A stretch of DNA of 32,000 bases from Nitrosopumilaceae archaeon (GCA_035528495.1 DATKYM010000042.1:9051-41050); one strand, 5' to 3'; positions 28,064-32,000 are shown, counted from the first letter of the stretch. Notes: generated from the letters alone by a model not told the origin. Translations and numbers: made by a program.

Positions 28064-28558
28064 ATGAGTAAACCTGGAAATATGTGGAGAAAAGTCCACG
28101 GAAAAATTACTAAAAGACCCACTAATTTCTCATGGTTAATCGAAGAAAAACTTGCAGGCTCTGGAATACCCACTAGCTTTGATGAATTTGAATGGATTCT
28201 ACAACAGGGAATAAAATCAATAGTAACGATGACAGAAAACCCATTACCTGAAAAATGGATAAATGAAATTGAATATTTGCATGTACCAACACCGGATCTA
28301 ACGGCTCCCGATATGGAAAAAATAGATATGGCAGTTGAATTTATCCATGAAAATATAAAAAACAATCAAGCAGTAATGGTCCATTGTGCAGCTGGGATGG
28401 GAAGAGCAGGAACTATTTTGGCATCTTATCTTGTAAAATATCAAAAATATTCAGCAAAAGATGCGATAACAAAAATACGAAAGGAAAGACCAGGTTCTAT
28501 TCAATCCGAAACACAAGAGTTAGCGATTACTTTTTATCAAAAACATTTAGGAAATTAA
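28064..28558 (+). CDS. Dual-specificity (Cys-based) protein phosphatase
   Basis: Active-site loop VHCAAGMGRAGT (HCx5R[S/T]) and upstream acid-loop candidate PTPDLTAPD. 164 aa. Confidence 0.85.
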   Translation: MSKPGNMWRKVHGKITKRPTNFSWLIEEKLAGSGIPTSFDEFEWILQQGIKSIVTMTENPLPEKWINEIEYLHVPTPDLTAPDMEKIDMAVEFIHENIKNNQAVMVHCAAGMGRAGTILASYLVKYQKYSAKDAITKIRKERPGSIQSETQELAITFYQKHLGN

Positions 28559-28701
28559 ATAAACTCTGAAACTAATTTTCCATCAACCACTCTAATTTTC
28601 AATTTTATATTTTCCTGAAATTCTAAAGTCATCCCTCCTTCAGAATCTGGGTCTTCAACCTTAACCAATTCTGTCATTTTAAGTTGATCAAATTTTGCCA
28701 T
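28555..28701 (-). CDS. Small hypothetical protein (48 aa), paralogue B of a tandem pair; absent from the supplied ORF track
   Basis: My own translation: MAKFDQLKMTELVKVEDPDSEGGMTLEFQENIKLKIRVVDGKLVSEFI. The ATG lies 9 nt after the stop of paralogue A. It shares about 20 of 48 residues with A. Confidence 0.55.
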   Translation of the reverse strand: MAKFDQLKMTELVKVEDPDSEGGMTLEFQENIKLKIRVVDGKLVSEFI

Positions 28702-28710
28702 GTCATTCAC

Positions 28711-28863
28711 CTATTCGGGAATAGATACCGTATCGATTTTACCATCAACTGCCTTTATGAATAAAAATCGGTTATCTTTAAAAATAAAAGTAATTCCACC
28801 TTCCTTGTCAGGTTCTTCAACTTCCAAAATGGGTTGTCCTAAAAGGCCATCATATTTTGCCAT
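28711..28863 (-). CDS. Small hypothetical protein (50 aa), paralogue A of a tandem pair; absent from the supplied ORF track
   Basis: My own translation: MAKYDGLLGQPILEVEEPDKEGGITFIFKDNRFLFIKAVDGKIDTVSIPE. A TATA-like CATATAAG (reverse complement of about 28885-28892) is centred about 26 nt upstream of the ATG, consistent with a leaderless mRNA. Confidence 0.55.
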   Translation of the reverse strand: MAKYDGLLGQPILEVEEPDKEGGITFIFKDNRFLFIKAVDGKIDTVSIPE

Positions 28864-28984: not shown

Positions 28985-29338
28985 TTGGATCATAACGATT
29001 TATGCCAAAAAATCTTAGAGTTAGTACCTCAAGTTAGGTTTAGTGGCATTTTAAACTCTAGAGGAGATTTAGCCGTTCAAAGTAATCGAAGAGATTCTGG
29101 AAAATTATTGAATGAGGATGAAGTAAAAATGTCTGTACATTATACTTATCAAAGATGGACAAGCATTCAAAATCTTGCTCATAAAATCGGTAAAGAAAAG
29201 ACAAACATTACAGAATTTGAGAAAGTTACTCTAATTAGCCTCCTCCTGAATGACGGAAATCTTCTCTTATTAAGCTCAGAACCCGCTGCTAATTATATGG
29301 AAATAATTTCCAAAGTCAAACAATTAATTCCTAATTAA
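28985..29338 (+). CDS. Hypothetical protein, Roadblock/LC7-like fold (inferred)
   Basis: 117 aa, TTG start. The pattern ILELVPQVRFSGILNSRGDLAV...VTLISLLLNDGNLLLLSSEPAANYMEIISKV resembles the Roadblock/LC7 alpha-beta-alpha layout. Confidence 0.45.
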   Translation: MDHNDLCQKILELVPQVRFSGILNSRGDLAVQSNRRDSGKLLNEDEVKMSVHYTYQRWTSIQNLAHKIGKEKTNITEFEKVTLISLLLNDGNLLLLSSEPAANYMEIISKVKQLIPN

Positions 29339-29697: not shown

Positions 29698-29834
29698 CTG
29701 TTAAAATTAGTAAAATTTTTTACGTCCTAAAATTAAAAAATAATTAATAAATTTTCCAAAATTTAGAGAAATTTACAATATCATAATTGAGAATCAGATA
29801 GTATAATAAATAAGCACATTTTTTTAATTTCTAT

Positions 29835-30416
29835 ATGAAGAAAATCGAGGCAATAATTAGGAGATCAAGCTATACCATAATAGCTGGCAAATTAAACACA
29901 ATGGGTTACCCAATTATTGATAAACGAAATTTAGAGGATAGCCAAATTTTAGATACCCAAGAAGGATCGCAAGCTGGTGGATCATTTAGAGTAAATACAA
30001 TTCCTCTTTCAAAAATTGAACTAGTTGTAACAGAAAAAGATGCTAGAAAAGTAATTGACCTTATTTCAAAAAATTCTGGATTCACATCGAGTAAAATAGG
30101 AAAAATTTTTGTATCAGAAATGGAAGAAGTTCTAGAAATTGACACACTTGAAAGTACTCAAGATTTAGAACTAGATGAAATTAATATTCCTCAAAAACCC
30201 AAAATCAAACGAAGTAGATTGGTTCCTCTTCAAAAATACACCTTACTTCGCCTTCAAGCTGTTTATGATGAAAACCATGAAACATTAGCCTCAGATCACA
30301 GGATAAAATCATTTAGTGACTTTGTTAATCATTGTATTATGGGGTATCTTCCGTCATTTGAAAAACAACTTAAACATCCTACAGTTGTTTACGGAAATAA
30401 TTTTAGAGAATTTTAG
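29835..30416 (+). CDS. PII-like domain fused to a C-terminal ribbon-helix-helix-like extension
   Basis: Residues 1-102 are PII-like: MKKIEAIIRR..., LSKIELVVTEKDARKVIDLI, B-loop-like SSKIGKIFVSEMEEVLEI, and a non-canonical T-loop EDSQILDTQEGSQAGGSFRVNT. Residues ~125-172, KRSRLVPLQKYTLLRLQAVYDENHETLASDHRIKSFSDFVNHCIMGYL, fit a strand-helix-helix pattern. Confidence 0.65.
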   Translation: MKKIEAIIRRSSYTIIAGKLNTMGYPIIDKRNLEDSQILDTQEGSQAGGSFRVNTIPLSKIELVVTEKDARKVIDLISKNSGFTSSKIGKIFVSEMEEVLEIDTLESTQDLELDEINIPQKPKIKRSRLVPLQKYTLLRLQAVYDENHETLASDHRIKSFSDFVNHCIMGYLPSFEKQLKHPTVVYGNNFREF

Positions 30417-30742
30417 ATAACGCTTTCACCTTCATCACCAGTTGCAATATCTATTGCACGGAGAATAGGTGAAACGAAGATTTTTCCAACACTTCCTTTT
30501 TCTTTAATTATGTTTATCACTTGCTCTTCTTTGCTTTCTGGAACAACTAATTCTATAACATACTTTTCACTGAACTGTGGTCGAAATATGGCACTTCCTT
30601 TTGCAGCATGGATTTCAGGAGGAGGTTTCTTTCCACGACCCCTTACTTTGTTTACAGTCAAACCACCGATCTCAAAAGCCTTTAATGCTTCACTAATTGC
30701 CATTACGTCATTATTTCCAAGGAAGGCTTGAATTCTTATCAT
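30413..30742 (-). CDS. PII (GlnK-like) superfamily protein, divergent from amt, atypical Pro/Lys-rich T-loop
   Basis: 109 aa. MIRIQAFL start, TVNKVRGRGKKPPPEIHAAKGSAIFRPQF T-loop region, B-loop GSVGKIFVSPI. Confidence 0.75.
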   Translation of the reverse strand: MIRIQAFLGNNDVMAISEALKAFEIGGLTVNKVRGRGKKPPPEIHAAKGSAIFRPQFSEKYVIELVVPESKEEQVINIIKEKGSVGKIFVSPILRAIDIATGDEGESVI

Positions 30743-30785
30743 TTAATATGTTTCAAGGTTTTTCACAAATAATAGTTTCAGATTT

Positions 30786-30817
30786 TGATAATCAAGTGAT
30801 AATCAAATAGTTATCAA
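30786..30817. promoter_or_regulatory. Candidate operator in the amt/PII divergent promoter: TGATAATCAA x2 plus TAGTTATCAA at 11-bp phasing, containing the inverted repeat TGATAA-N8-TTATCA
   Basis: Copies at 30786-30795, 30797-30806 and 30808-30817. They are flanked by TATTATTT TATA-like boxes, one for each divergent gene (about 30826-30833 on the plus strand; reverse complement of about 30766-30773). Confidence 0.5.
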
Positions 30818-30858
30818 ACTTCGTTATTATTATTTAGTTTCACCAACTTTGAAAAATA

Positions 30859-32000
30859 TTGCCAATAGATACAGGTGACACCGCATGGATGCTTGTAGCA
30901 GGAAGTCTAGTACTTTTAATGATTCCTGCGCTTGGTCTTTTTGAATCTGGTTTACTTCGAAAGAAAAATGCTGTATCTGTTTTTATGCAAATTTTCTTTG
31001 GTTTAGCATTACTTAGTGTGATGTGGTTCATATTCGGTTTTAGTTTAGCATTTGGTCCTGATGATACCGGTCTTGGATTAATAGGCAACATGGATTGGGT
31101 ATTCCTAAAAGGAGTGCCTTGGAATGAGGCACTAGATTATGCACCGACAATCCCAGGTGTTTTGTTTGTTAAATTTCAGTTAATGTTTGCCGCAATTACA
31201 CCTTTGTTGCTTACAGGAACTATAGCAGAACGAATGAAGTTTAGCTCCTTTATCATATTCATCGCTGCATGGTCAATACTCATCTATTATCCGTTAGTAC
31301 ATTGGGTATGGGGAGGAGGTTGGTTAAGTGCGATAGGTGTTGTAGATTTTGCTGGTGGAATAGTAATCCACACAAGCGTAGGAATGGGTGCACTAGCTGC
31401 TGCAATTGTACTTGGCCGCAGACGATTCTTTGGTCCTGCAATTGAAATTCCACATAGTATCCCACTGGCTGTAGTAGGTTCTTCTCTTCTGTGGTTAGGT
31501 TGGTTTGGATTTAACGCAGGAAGTGCATTAGCTTCAGGTTCTCTTGCAGGAAATACTGTAATTGTAACTCACATGGCCTCTTCAGTTTCTGCATTAATTT
31601 GGGTCGGATTATCTTGGATGAGAACAGGAAAACCATCTGTAGTTGCTGCCGTAAATGGAGCTATTGCAGGTTTAGCAGGAATCACACCAGCATCTGGATA
31701 TGTAAGTGTAGAACACTCATTTATTATCGGAATTGCAATAGGACTTGCATCGTACTCTACAATTATTATCTTCAAGGAAAAGTTGAAAATAGATGATGCA
31801 CTAGATGTTAGCTCTGTTCACGGAACTGCAGGTATTATTGGTGCATTATCAATTGGTATCTTTGCAAGTCAAGCTGTTAACCCAGGAGGGCCAAACGGTT
31901 TACTCTTTGGGAACCCAGATCAATTAGGAATTCAAGCAATTGGAGTGGGAGTTGCAGGAGCATTAGGATTTGGTGGTACTTACATAATTATGAAAATACT
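30859..32000 (+). CDS. amt: Ammonium transporter (Amt/MEP/Rh family), 3' end beyond the window; absent from the supplied ORF track
   Basis: My own translation, open from TTG 30859 to the window end: MPIDTGDTAWMLVAGSLVLLMIPALGLFESGLLRKKN..., VDFAGGIVIHTSVG, LWLGWFGFNAGS, DVSSVHGTAGIIGAL. The conserved DTAWML lies upstream of the first ATG (30889), which supports the TTG start. Confidence 0.92.
   Translation, partial: MPIDTGDTAWMLVAGSLVLLMIPALGLFESGLLRKKNAVSVFMQIFFGLALLSVMWFIFGFSLAFGPDDTGLGLIGNMDWVFLKGVPWNEALDYAPTIPGVLFVKFQLMFAAITPLLLTGTIAERMKFSSFIIFIAAWSILIYYPLVHWVWGGGWLSAIGVVDFAGGIVIHTSVGMGALAAAIVLGRRRFFGPAIEIPHSIPLAVVGSSLLWLGWFGFNAGSALASGSLAGNTVIVTHMASSVSALIWVGLSWMRTGKPSVVAAVNGAIAGLAGITPASGYVSVEHSFIIGIAIGLASYSTIIIFKEKLKIDDALDVSSVHGTAGIIGALSIGIFASQAVNPGGPNGLLFGNPDQLGIQAIGVGVAGALGFGGTYIIMKI

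What the first reader, a model, noticed from the sequence alone, without database searches (positions are those of the whole stretch)
29835..30416. PII sensor domain fused to a ribbon-helix-helix-like DNA-binding tail, next to amt
The first ~100 residues have the PII beta-alpha-beta layout (MKKIEAIIRR, IELVV, KIGKIFV). The T-loop is unrelated to canonical GlnB/GlnK. A ~90-residue extension follows, and its segment RSRLVPL-QKYTLLRLQAVYDEN-...-SFSDFVNHCIMGYL fits the strand/helix/helix pattern of CopG/Arc/MetJ-type RHH repressors. The basic residues before the strand and the S-x-S-D-F start of helix 2 resemble the usual G-x-S/T-R-S-E motif. Canonical PII proteins regulate targets by protein-protein contact. 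A covalent PII-DNA-binding fusion would be a one-component nitrogen/energy-status transcription factor, a type I do not know to be characterised. It sits 450 bp from a repeat-bearing amt promoter. No nitrogen regulator comparable to NrpR, NtcA or GlnR is established for ammonia-oxidising archaea.
Basis: inference. Interest (0 to 1): 0.72.

Follow-up and report, generated by a model that had tools for sequence, protein, structure and literature searches.

The report
PII-like protein with orphan C-terminal domain
Ammonia-oxidising archaea encode, next to an ammonium transporter gene, a PII-type signalling protein that has lost the usual ligand-binding residues and gained a conserved, tethered C-terminal domain that may bind a repeat element in the neighbouring promoters, but DNA binding is not shown.

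Summary
ORF 29835-30416 (+, 193 aa) is real and conserved. Residues 1-103 match Pfam P-II above threshold. Residues 122-180 form a conserved helical domain joined by a variable acidic linker.

- No RHH or other DNA-binding family matches the extension in Pfam, PHROGs, NCBIfam or PDB sequences. A profile comparison with known RHH proteins gave P = 0.22.
- The supporting signals are weak. The best Foldseek PDB hit is an RHH protein (E 6.8). There is a marginal profile similarity (P about 0.01) to a genuine small RHH family of the same genomes.
- The "ATP/ADP/2-oxoglutarate sensor" idea is weakened, because the canonical PII ligand residues are nearly all replaced.

New context: the order extended PII > short PII < > amt is conserved across Nitrosopumilaceae. 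The promoter shared by the short PII gene and amt carries three 11-bp-spaced TGATNATCA units, about 310-fold enriched. A related unit sits in the extended protein's own promoter.

I put DNA binding by this protein at about 0.45. It is an uncharacterised variant of a known protein kind and worth an EMSA.

The parts
29835..30416 (+). Gene for the extended PII-like protein (PIIext), 193 aa
   Evidence: ORF; 1344 homologues; 142 GTDB species genomes, nearly all labelled as Nitrosopumilaceae or relatives
29835..30143 (+). PII-like domain, residues 1-103 (ferredoxin-like fold)
   Evidence: Pfam P-II E 4.9e-10, above the gathering score; GlnK structures E 1e-10 to 1e-11; AlphaFold secondary structure; canonical ligand residues replaced
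29940..30002 (+). T-loop equivalent, residues 36-56; non-canonical, variable, predicted disordered
   Evidence: pLDDT below 50 for residues 37-51; mean entropy 1.57 bits, the highest of any segment; no canonical RGxQ or Y51
30144..30197 (+). Acidic flexible linker, residues 104-121
   Evidence: pLDDT below 50 for residues 98-128; entropy 1.30 bits; up to about 30 residues longer in divergent relatives P0124 and P0127
30198..30224 (+). Basic arm PKIKRSRLV, residues 122-130; proposed strand or DNA-reading segment
   Evidence: R126 and R128 invariant in 159 unique sequences; R128, V130, L132 and Q133 invariant in the 12 most diverse members; coil in the monomer model
30225..30374 (+). Helical core of the C-terminal domain, residues 131-180 (helices 131-146, 148-155, 160-180)
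   Evidence: AlphaFold of the domain alone: mean pLDDT 81, above 90 for residues 131-170; entropy 0.58 bits; no family match; top Foldseek hit RHH ParB 3no7, E 6.8
30375..30413 (+). C-terminal tail, residues 181-193 (HPTVVYGNNFREF); disordered
   Evidence: pLDDT below 50; Y186, N188, N189 and F193 invariant in close relatives but not in distant ones
29788..29796 (.). Single operator-like unit TGAGAATCA in the PIIext promoter, directly upstream of the TATA-like box
   Evidence: TGATAAT falls at -50..-41 in 35 of 74 orthologous promoters; about 0.6 expected. Two tandem units in L080 and four in L128
29802..29813 (+). TATA-like box of PIIext (TATAATAAATAA), about 27 nt before the ATG
   Evidence: Conserved '..TAATAAATA..' block in the upstream alignment; its promoter role is inferred from general archaeal promoter layout
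30413..30742 (-). Second, canonical-length PII-like gene (PII2, 109 aa), convergent with PIIext; stop codons overlap
   Evidence: Pfam P-II E 5.2e-12; adjacent in almost all of the 80 loci
30786..30816 (.). Three tandem 11-bp-spaced units (TGATAATCA 30786-94, TGATAATCA 30797-805, TAGTTATCA 30808-16) between the divergent PII2 and amt promoters
   Evidence: Sequence; GATWATC core in 68 of 73 loci; TGATNATCA 12.7 per kb here against 0.041 per kb elsewhere in the loci; no other exact copy in the 32-kb window
30767..30775 (-). TATA-like box for PII2
   Evidence: Conserved CACAAATA.TA block, about 29 nt from the PII2 start; role inferred
30824..30837 (+). TATA-like box for amt
   Evidence: Conserved GTTATTATTA block, about 29 nt from the amt start; role inferred
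30859..32000 (+). Ammonium transporter gene (amt; runs off the window)
   Evidence: Translation with DTGDTAWML; 76-98% identical Amt in the loci; Pfam Ammonium_transp on the L083 neighbour. The low-affinity Amt1 type is inferred from PMC4836417

Best explanation
PIIext is a PII-like protein, presumably trimeric, whose output is no longer the T-loop. The output is instead a tethered C-terminal domain of about 60 residues: a basic arm (KRSRLV) followed by helices.

The most likely reading is that this domain binds nucleic acid, probably as an RHH-like module with a lengthened first helix. Its target would be the TGATNATCA units. Three of these, spaced 11 bp apart, sit between the divergent PII2 and amt promoters against both TATA boxes. 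One or more sit in its own promoter.

Three units on one face of the DNA fit either three domains of one trimer or three dimers formed between two trimers. From that position the protein would control access of TFB/TBP and so set transcription of the amt, PII2 and PIIext genes. In N. maritimus the low-affinity amt, which literature links to PII genes, is known to be turned down when ammonia runs out.

Shown here: the domain architecture, its conservation, the synteny, and the existence, conservation and specificity of the operator.

Inferred: the trimer, the fold of the C-terminal domain, DNA binding, and the identity of the signal. The signal is unlikely to be canonical ATP/ADP/2-oxoglutarate binding.
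For: - Two-domain architecture with a disordered linker of variable length. The T-loop is the least conserved part and the C-terminal domain is as conserved as the PII core.
- The arm holds invariant R126 and R128. In the 12 most diverse members R128, V130, L132 and Q133 are invariant.
- The S-F-S-D start of the last helix is shared with a small protein family of the same genomes. That family is a genuine RHH by profile comparison (90% probability, P 1.7e-6).
- The similarity between the PIIext domain and that family is marginal:
  - phmmer places PIIext proteins as its best non-family hits (E 0.1-0.9 among 5154 ORF segments);
  - hhalign gives P 0.004 to 0.087 depending on alignment depth;
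  - a column-shuffle control reached the observed score in 3 of 200 trials.
- The top PDB Foldseek hit is the RHH domain of ParB pCXC100 (3no7; TM 0.45/0.53). That protein also lacked detectable sequence motifs and binds tandem direct repeats (PMC3074162).
- The operator is conserved and specific, about 310-fold enriched.
- A related unit lies in the PIIext promoter: 35 of 74 loci against about 0.6 expected. L128 has four tandem units directly upstream of PIIext.
- Divergent lineage L083 keeps both the synteny and GATAATC/GATTATC units in both promoters.
- A search that started from the operator found PIIext within 1 kb on all 14 archaeal contigs with enough flanking sequence.
- Regulation of low-affinity amt by ammonia supply is reported in PMC7490402.
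Against: - No significant match of the extension to any DNA-binding family by Pfam, PHROGs, NCBIfam or PDB sequence profile, even with the inserted helix removed.
- hhalign against known RHH proteins gives P 0.22, or 0.06 after the deletion. That is worse than every known RHH tested, including the outlier MetJ (P 0.016).
- The Foldseek hits are not significant: E 6.8 in PDB and E 4-6 in BFVD.
- The AlphaFold monomer shows no strand and has a third helix.
- A trimeric scaffold and a dimeric RHH have mismatched symmetry.
- A PII gene sharing an operator with amt is expected under any nitrogen regulator, so the promoter evidence does not identify the binder.
- A separate small RHH gene lies in the amt neighbourhood in some Nitrosopumilus genomes and could be the binder.
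- To my knowledge, no PII protein is known to bind DNA.
Confidence: 0.45

Rival explanations
1. The C-terminal domain is a protein-protein output or docking module. PIIext would regulate ammonium transport or assimilation after translation, for example by binding Amt, the adjacent PII2 or another enzyme. A different transcription factor would read the TGATNATCA operator; one candidate is the small RHH protein family found in these genomes.
For: - All characterised PII proteins act through protein contacts (established knowledge; PMC4836417, describes PII genes next to amt in these archaea).
- The extension matches no DNA-binding family.
- PIIext and PII2 are tightly linked and convergent in nearly all loci, as expected for interacting partners.
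- A genuine small RHH gene follows amt and the DUF6659 gene in at least 6 Nitrosopumilus loci.
- Sponge symbionts are reported to lose amt1 and the extra PII genes together (PMC11812461), which fits a local transport-linked role.
Against: - The invariant basic arm on a long flexible acidic linker, and the net positive charge of the domain, suit nucleic acid better than a fixed protein interface. This is inference.
- The small RHH gene was near the module in only 7 of 80 loci and is absent from the 32-kb window. PIIext accompanies every operator found.
- In L128 the repeat array sits at the PIIext promoter itself.
Confidence: 0.38
2. The extension is an intramolecular regulatory element, comparable in role to the plant PII Q-loop or the SbtB R-loop. 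It would fold back on the PII body to create or gate a new ligand site.
For: Other PII-like proteins use C-terminal additions this way (PMC9974498 and PMC5768801, listed). The canonical ligand residues are gone, so a new site would be needed.
Against: - Known extensions of this type are short (my own knowledge). This one is about 90 residues, with a domain that folds confidently on its own (pLDDT 81).
- The linker is disordered, variable in sequence, and up to about 30 residues longer in relatives. That argues against a fixed docking geometry.
- The full-length model shows no confident packing (pTM 0.42).
Confidence: 0.1
3. The C-terminal domain binds DNA through a fold other than RHH, for example a three-helix helix-turn-helix-like bundle with an N-terminal arm. 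Each domain of one trimer would read one 11-bp direct repeat as a monomer.
For: - AlphaFold gives three helices (16, 8 and 21 residues) preceded by a basic arm.
- Three repeats match three domains without needing two trimers.
- BFVD hits include the helix-turn-helix repressor RstR, at a non-significant E of 6.
Against: No helix-turn-helix family match. The last helix is hydrophobic and poor in basic residues, unlike a typical recognition helix (sequence). The central units are palindromic, which suggests dimers.
Confidence: 0.12

Closest known systems
Canonical GlnK/GlnB PII proteins (e.g. M. jannaschii GlnK1 2j9c, E. coli GlnK)
   Same: Same fold and Pfam family. Encoded beside an amt gene.
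   Different: T-loop unrelated and variable. The ATP/ADP/2-oxoglutarate ligand residues are replaced (R101/R103 become E/D, K58 becomes L, the RGxQ motif is lost). It carries an extra tethered domain of about 90 residues. The gene is convergent to, not co-transcribed with, the other PII gene.
PII-like proteins with C-terminal additions (cyanobacterial SbtB R-loop, plant and algal PII Q-loop)
   Same: A PII scaffold whose function is modified by a C-terminal addition.
   Different: Those additions are short loops that pack on the PII body (my own knowledge). Here there is an independently folding domain on a long disordered linker.
NikR (RHH DNA-binding domain fused to an ACT-like ferredoxin-fold ligand domain)
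   Same: If the RHH reading is right, the same logic applies: a small beta-alpha-beta sensor or oligomerisation domain covalently joined to an RHH.
   Different: NikR is a tetramer with the RHH at the N-terminus and matched two-fold symmetry. Here the scaffold is presumably trimeric, the putative RHH is C-terminal, and no sequence match to RHH_1 was found.
Non-covalent PII-to-transcription-factor couplings (PII-PipX-NtcA, GlnK-AmtR, GlnK-TnrA)
   Same: They link PII signalling to transcription of nitrogen genes, including amt.
   Different: In those systems the DNA-binding protein is a separate polypeptide. Here the candidate DNA-binding module would be fused to the PII-like domain.
RHH proteins that bind tandem repeats (ParB of pCXC100, omega repressor, MetJ)
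   Same: Best, though non-significant, structural match (3no7). Like the PIIext domain, ParB had no detectable sequence motif, and it binds uninterrupted short direct repeats cooperatively (PMC3074162). It has long first and second helices.
   Different: No significant sequence or profile similarity. The PIIext domain has an extra 8-residue helix between the two main helices.
Small (47-58 aa) unannotated RHH family of Nitrosopumilaceae (e.g. L041 6575-6751; P0134-P0246)
   Same: Shared I-S-F-S-x-V-x-N start of the last helix. The lengthened region between helix A and helix B aligns without gaps in the local hhalign alignments. Marginal profile similarity (P 0.004-0.087). Same genomes, sometimes the same neighbourhood.
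   Different: The small family has a clear RRVTVTMDDEL strand and helix-A signature and matches known RHH proteins (90%). The PIIext arm (KRSRLVPLQKYTL) does not.

Membership tests
PII superfamily (Pfam PF00543) | Profile match above the curated threshold over the roughly 100-residue domain | tested here: met
   40.1 bits against a cut-off of 25, residues 1-103; GlnK structures E 1e-10 to 1e-11
PII superfamily (Pfam PF00543) | Double beta-alpha-beta ferredoxin-like fold | tested here: met
   AlphaFold elements E2-9, H10-22, E29-33, E58-65, H67-80, E91-95; pLDDT 87-90 in the core
Canonical GlnB/GlnK subfamily | Conserved T-loop (R38/Q39 base, R47, Y51 or S49 region) | tested here: not met
   Alignment A3 with E. 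coli GlnB/GlnK and MJ0059; the T-loop is the most variable segment
Canonical GlnB/GlnK subfamily | ATP/ADP/2-oxoglutarate ligand residues (G35, G37, R38, Q39, K58, G87, D88, G89, K90, R101, R103) | tested here: not met
   Only G89 and K90 are kept in the window protein, and G89 is not kept across the family. R101/R103 become E/D
Canonical GlnB/GlnK subfamily | Homotrimer | not testable with these tools
   Only monomer prediction was available
Ribbon-helix-helix (CopG/Arc/MetJ) superfamily | Sequence-profile match to an RHH family | tested here: not met
   No RHH family at E up to 10 in Pfam, PHROGs, NCBIfam or PDB profile searches, with or without the inserted helix
Ribbon-helix-helix (CopG/Arc/MetJ) superfamily | Profile-profile similarity to known RHH proteins | tested here: not met
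   hhalign P 0.22 (0.06 with the insertion deleted). In the leave-one-out control 10 of 15 known RHH proteins scored above 70% and the weakest, MetJ, gave P 0.016.
Ribbon-helix-helix (CopG/Arc/MetJ) superfamily | Strand-helix-helix topology | tested here: inconclusive
   The monomer model gives coil (122-130) plus helices 131-146, 148-155 and 160-180. The strand of an RHH forms only in the dimer, which could not be modelled.
Ribbon-helix-helix (CopG/Arc/MetJ) superfamily | Structural similarity to solved RHH domains | tested here: inconclusive
Ribbon-helix-helix (CopG/Arc/MetJ) superfamily | Intertwined homodimer that inserts a two-stranded ribbon into the major groove | not testable with these tools
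   Needs multimer prediction with DNA, or experiment
One-component transcription factor (sensor domain fused to a DNA-binding domain) | A demonstrable DNA-binding domain and a cognate operator | tested here: inconclusive
   A conserved operator exists in the neighbouring and own promoters. The binder is not identified.

The most novel reading that the evidence does not exclude
PIIext is the first DNA-binding member of the PII superfamily. It would be a one-component regulator in which a ligand-rewired PII trimer carries three RHH-like half-modules. Two trimers would pair to give three RHH dimers, which read the three 11-bp-spaced TGATNATCA units and switch the divergent amt and PII2 promoters and its own promoter. 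It would then be the first identified regulator of ammonium-transporter transcription in ammonia-oxidising archaea.
Probability: 0.3. Interest if true: 0.85.

Novelty: new variant of a known kind. Interest (0 to 1): 0.62.

Why it matters
Ammonia-oxidising archaea use ammonia both as fuel and as nitrogen source. They are known to shut down their low-affinity ammonium transporter when ammonia runs out (PMC7490402). My literature searches found no regulator described for this.

This locus supplies two concrete, testable objects. One is a sharply defined operator: three TGATNATCA units between two TATA boxes. The other is a conserved neighbouring protein with an unassigned, basic, tethered domain.

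If the protein binds the operator, it would be a new architecture for PII signalling, with sensor and DNA-binding output on one chain. It would also be an entry point to nitrogen regulation in a globally abundant group of archaea.

If it does not, it is still a PII-like protein with rewired ligand residues and a new output domain. The operator then awaits its factor.

Tried and rejected
- Family searches for the extension all came back empty:
  - Pfam, PHROGs and NCBIfam scans of 12 diverse C-terminal domains at E up to 10;
  - the same against Pfam after deleting the inserted helix in 8 variants;
  - a profile search of PDB sequences.
- A phmmer search of the extension against 1.84 billion representative proteins found only 12 real clusters. 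Every complete protein among them is a PII fusion, some are fragments, and one further hit (a TPR protein) is spurious. No stand-alone relatives were found.
- Contigs for the divergent relatives P0124, P0127 and P0131 were too short, or had no DNA, so they gave no context.
- Relative P0130 (L085) sits among riboflavin and chemotaxis genes with no amt nearby and no clear operator. This shows that synteny is not universal.
- A metagenome scan for tandem units to find further regulon members returned mostly unrelated bacterial hairpins. The only new archaeal targets were L128 and L163.
- The NCBI label 'transcriptional regulator' on some homologues was not counted as evidence. It looks like a generic name for PII-family proteins.
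- A coiled-coil or trimeric-bundle reading of the extension was considered and dropped. The helices are short and one is broken by a proline.
- Locus-tag literature searches for the N. maritimus genes found nothing on this protein.

Full report
**Names.** PIIext is the 193-aa protein of this finding. PII2 is its short PII-like neighbour.

**1. What is there**

The ORF 29835-30416 (+) is exactly as described: ATG start, 193 aa. Residues 1-103 match Pfam P-II (E 4.9e-10, 40.1 bits, gathering score 25). They align over their whole length with solved archaeal GlnK proteins (7p4y, 2j9c; E 1e-10 to 1e-11).

AlphaFold reproduces the PII double beta-alpha-beta core at pLDDT 87-90. It leaves residues 37-51 (the T-loop), 98-128 (the linker) and 181-193 (the tail) disordered.

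The gene is real and widespread. 1344 homologues were found; the best 120 listed are nearly all 192-194 aa (a few at 171 aa) and 68-98% identical.

A pattern scan of one genome per GTDB species, using the C-terminal domain alone, found it in 142 species. These are Nitrosopumilus, Nitrosarchaeum, Nitrosomaritimum, Nitrosopelagicus and relatives.

**2. The extension is a separate, conserved, orphan domain**

- *Conservation.* Over 159 unique full-length sequences the mean column entropy is 1.57 bits in the T-loop and 1.30 in the linker. It is 0.59 in the basic arm (122-130), 0.58 in the helices (131-180) and 0.59-0.75 in the PII core. K125-L137 (KRSRLVPLQKYTL) and R156-P173 (RIKSFSDFVNHCIMGYLP) are almost invariant.
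- *Linker.* In divergent relatives (P0124, P0127) the linker is up to about 30 residues longer while the domain is kept.
- *Fold.* Folded alone, the domain gives a mean pLDDT of 81, above 90 for residues 131-170. It has helices 131-146, 148-155 and 160-180, and an unstructured arm.
- *Distribution.* A phmmer search of the domain against 1.84 billion representative proteins found only 12 true clusters. Every complete protein among them is a PII fusion, and some are fragments. The domain therefore has no detectable stand-alone relatives.

**3. Is it a ribbon-helix-helix (RHH)?**

The direct tests are negative.

- No RHH or other DNA-binding family appears at E up to 10 in Pfam, PHROGs or NCBIfam for 12 diverse members, nor in a profile search of PDB sequences.
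- Deleting the short middle helix to mimic a canonical RHH did not help.
hhalign of the domain profile against it gave 0.3% probability and P 0.22, or 0.9% and P 0.06 with the insertion deleted.
- In a leave-one-out control, 10 of 15 known RHH proteins scored above 70%. The worst, MetJ, gave P 0.016.

Three weak signals point the other way.

- *Structure.* Foldseek against 350,542 PDB chains returned only three hits at E up to 10. The top two are chains of 3no7, the RHH domain of ParB from pCXC100 (E 6.8, TM 0.45/0.53).
[quoted passage not shown] It has long helices (18 and 20 residues, the first bent) and binds nine uninterrupted direct repeats (PMC3074162).
- *A related family.* Scanning all ORF segments of the window and loci with the RHH model surfaced a small (47-58 aa) unannotated Nitrosopumilus protein family.
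  - This family is a genuine RHH by profile comparison (90% probability, P 1.7e-6), with a six-residue insertion after helix A.
  - It shares the I-S-F-S-x-V-x-N start of helix B with the IKSFSDFVN of PIIext.
  - phmmer with one member ranks PIIext proteins as its best non-family hits (E 0.1-0.9 among 5154 segments).
  - hhalign between the two families gives P 0.004 for shallow alignments and 0.012-0.087 for deep ones. A column-shuffle control reached the observed score in 3 of 200 trials.
  - This is suggestive at about the 1-2% level, post hoc, and not robust.
- *The arm.* In the 12 most diverse members R128, V130, L132 and Q133 are invariant and R126 nearly so. This is compatible with one functional face of a strand.

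Overall, an RHH-like fold is possible but not demonstrated. I put it at roughly 0.3. A different DNA-binding fold adds about another 0.1-0.15.

**4. The PII part is not a canonical sensor**

I aligned PIIext with E. coli GlnB and GlnK and with M. jannaschii GlnK1. The family lacks G35, G37, R38 and Q39. K58 is replaced (by L in the window protein). G87 and D88 are lost. R101 and R103 are replaced ('LEIDTLE' in place of 'VRIRTGE'). Only K90, and G89 in part of the family, survive.

The proposed sensing of ATP, ADP and 2-oxoglutarate is therefore doubtful. The domain may bind something else or serve mainly as an oligomerisation scaffold.

**5. Context**

*Synteny.* In nearly all of the 80 loci with enough flanking sequence the order is PIIext (+), PII2 (-), amt (+), while the upstream genes differ between genera. 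A relative with only 44% identity in the C-terminal domain (P0128, L083) keeps the same trio. One distant, degenerate relative (P0130, L085) does not. Literature places PII genes next to the low-affinity Amt1 in this group (PMC4836417).

*The operator.* The 116-bp region between PII2 and amt (30743-30858) holds three units spaced 11 bp apart: TGATAATCA (30786-94), TGATAATCA (30797-805) and TAGTTATCA (30808-16). A TATA-like box for PII2 (30767-75) lies on one side and one for amt (30824-37) on the other.

- The GATWATC core occurs in 68 of 73 loci.
- TGATNATCA occurs at 12.7 per kb there against 0.041 per kb in the rest of the loci.
- No further exact copy exists in the 32-kb window, and one-mismatch matches are at chance level.

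*Own promoter.* The PIIext promoter has a related unit directly upstream of its TATA-like box: TGAGAATCA at 29788-96 in the window. TGATAAT falls at -50..-41 in 35 of 74 loci against about 0.6 expected.

- Nitrosopelagicus (L080) has two tandem units there.
- Lineage L128 has four.
- L083 has units flanking the TATA box.

*Operator-first search.* A metagenome scan using the operator as the query returned mostly unrelated bacterial hairpins. All 14 archaeal contigs with enough flanking sequence carried PIIext within 1 kb.

N. maritimus is reported to depress low-affinity amt expression under ammonia starvation (PMC7490402). A regulator acting at this promoter is therefore expected.

**6. How it most likely works**

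*Best reading (0.45).* The PII-like body provides a scaffold, presumably trimeric, and perhaps a new ligand site. The tethered basic domain binds the TGATNATCA units. Occupancy next to both TATA boxes, and at its own promoter, sets transcription of amt, PII2 and PIIext. Three units on one DNA face match three domains per trimer, or three dimers between two trimers. This numerical fit is inference only.

*Main rival (0.38).* The domain is a protein-docking output, with Amt, PII2 or another target as partner, and another factor reads the operator. The small RHH family is a candidate. It follows amt and the DUF6659 gene in at least six Nitrosopumilus loci, but it was near the module in only 7 of 80 loci and is absent from the window.

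*Minor readings.* A fold-back regulatory element is unlikely given the long variable linker. A non-RHH DNA-binding fold remains possible.

**7. Novelty and verdict**

I found no paper describing the extension, a PII domain fused to a DNA-binding domain, or this operator. Databases call the protein 'nitrogen regulatory protein P-II' or a generic 'transcriptional regulator'.

It is a new variant of a known kind: a PII-like protein with rewired ligand residues and an orphan output domain.

The finding, together with the operator, makes the question of amt regulation in these archaea directly testable.

Noticed in passing
window 30786-30816 (and 30743-30858 overall): Three 11-bp-spaced TGATNATCA units lie between two divergent TATA-like boxes of the PII2 and amt genes. 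They are conserved across Nitrosopumilaceae and about 310-fold enriched over the rest of the loci. They occupy the BRE positions of both promoters.
   Followed up: yes
L071 (Nitrosopumilus sp. 8_1_Jan_SF_Bin66), PII2-amt intergenic region: The 11-bp unit TTTGATAATCA is expanded to 11 tandem copies, in a 200-bp intergenic region instead of about 114 bp. This could be natural repeat expansion or an assembly effect.
   Followed up: partly
L128 5376-5420 and 4733-5317: In this lineage four tandem operator units lie directly upstream of PIIext. The gene order is amt, DUF6659, an FNR-like reductase, then PIIext, all on one strand, with no adjacent short PII gene.
   Followed up: partly
window 28985-29338 (+); L041 6226-6594; L128 6255-6647: A 117-130 aa DUF6659 protein travels with the module. 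It lies upstream of PIIext in the window's clade and directly downstream of amt in Nitrosopumilus. The L128 homologue matches Pfam DUF6659 at E 1.3e-7; the window copy is below threshold. Its function is unknown.
   Followed up: partly
L041 6575-6751 (+); L046 2874-3017 (-); proteins P0134-P0246: A small (47-58 aa) protein family of Nitrosopumilaceae has no Pfam annotation but is an RHH by profile comparison (90%, P 1.7e-6). It has a six-residue insertion after helix A. It overlaps the end of the DUF6659 gene downstream of amt in some genomes. It is a candidate regulator in its own right.
   Followed up: partly
window 30413-30416: The stop codons of the convergent PIIext and PII2 genes overlap by 4 nt in the window. 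Its closest relatives have no gap between the two genes either. Nitrosopumilus species have a spacer of about 230 bp. Convergent transcription could make the two genes interfere with each other.
   Followed up: no
L163 4-23 and 226-1374: A divergent Amt (45% identical to the window's) is preceded, about 200 bp upstream, by tandem TGATAATCA units. The contig starts at the repeats, so the upstream gene is unknown.
   Followed up: no
L083 1-3662 and 5140-7933: In the divergent P0128 lineage the module has two amt genes in tandem. It lies next to a dCache/PAS histidine kinase, a response regulator and a guanylate-cyclase-like gene.
   Followed up: no
window 28555-28710 (-) and 28711-28863 (-): Two adjacent ORFs of 50-51 aa look like paralogues of each other (…EEPDKEGGITFIFKDN… and …EDPDSEGGMTLEFQEN…). 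No function was looked for.
   Followed up: no
window 28064-28558 (+): A dual-specificity or tyrosine phosphatase-like protein (Pfam PTP-SAK E 5.6e-25, DSPc E 9e-19) is conserved upstream in the window's clade only.
   Followed up: no
L107, L124, L136, L137, L140, L161, L185, L200 and others (gut and other metagenomes): A recurring element of about 60 nt, GGTACGAATAAACCCTGATAATCACCTGATTATCAGGGTTTTCTGCTTTTATAGGGCGTAC, turned up in many unrelated bacterial contigs. It is a perfect hairpin around the same TGATAATCA..TGATTATCA core. It is probably a terminator or repeat element and unrelated to the archaeal operator.
   Followed up: no
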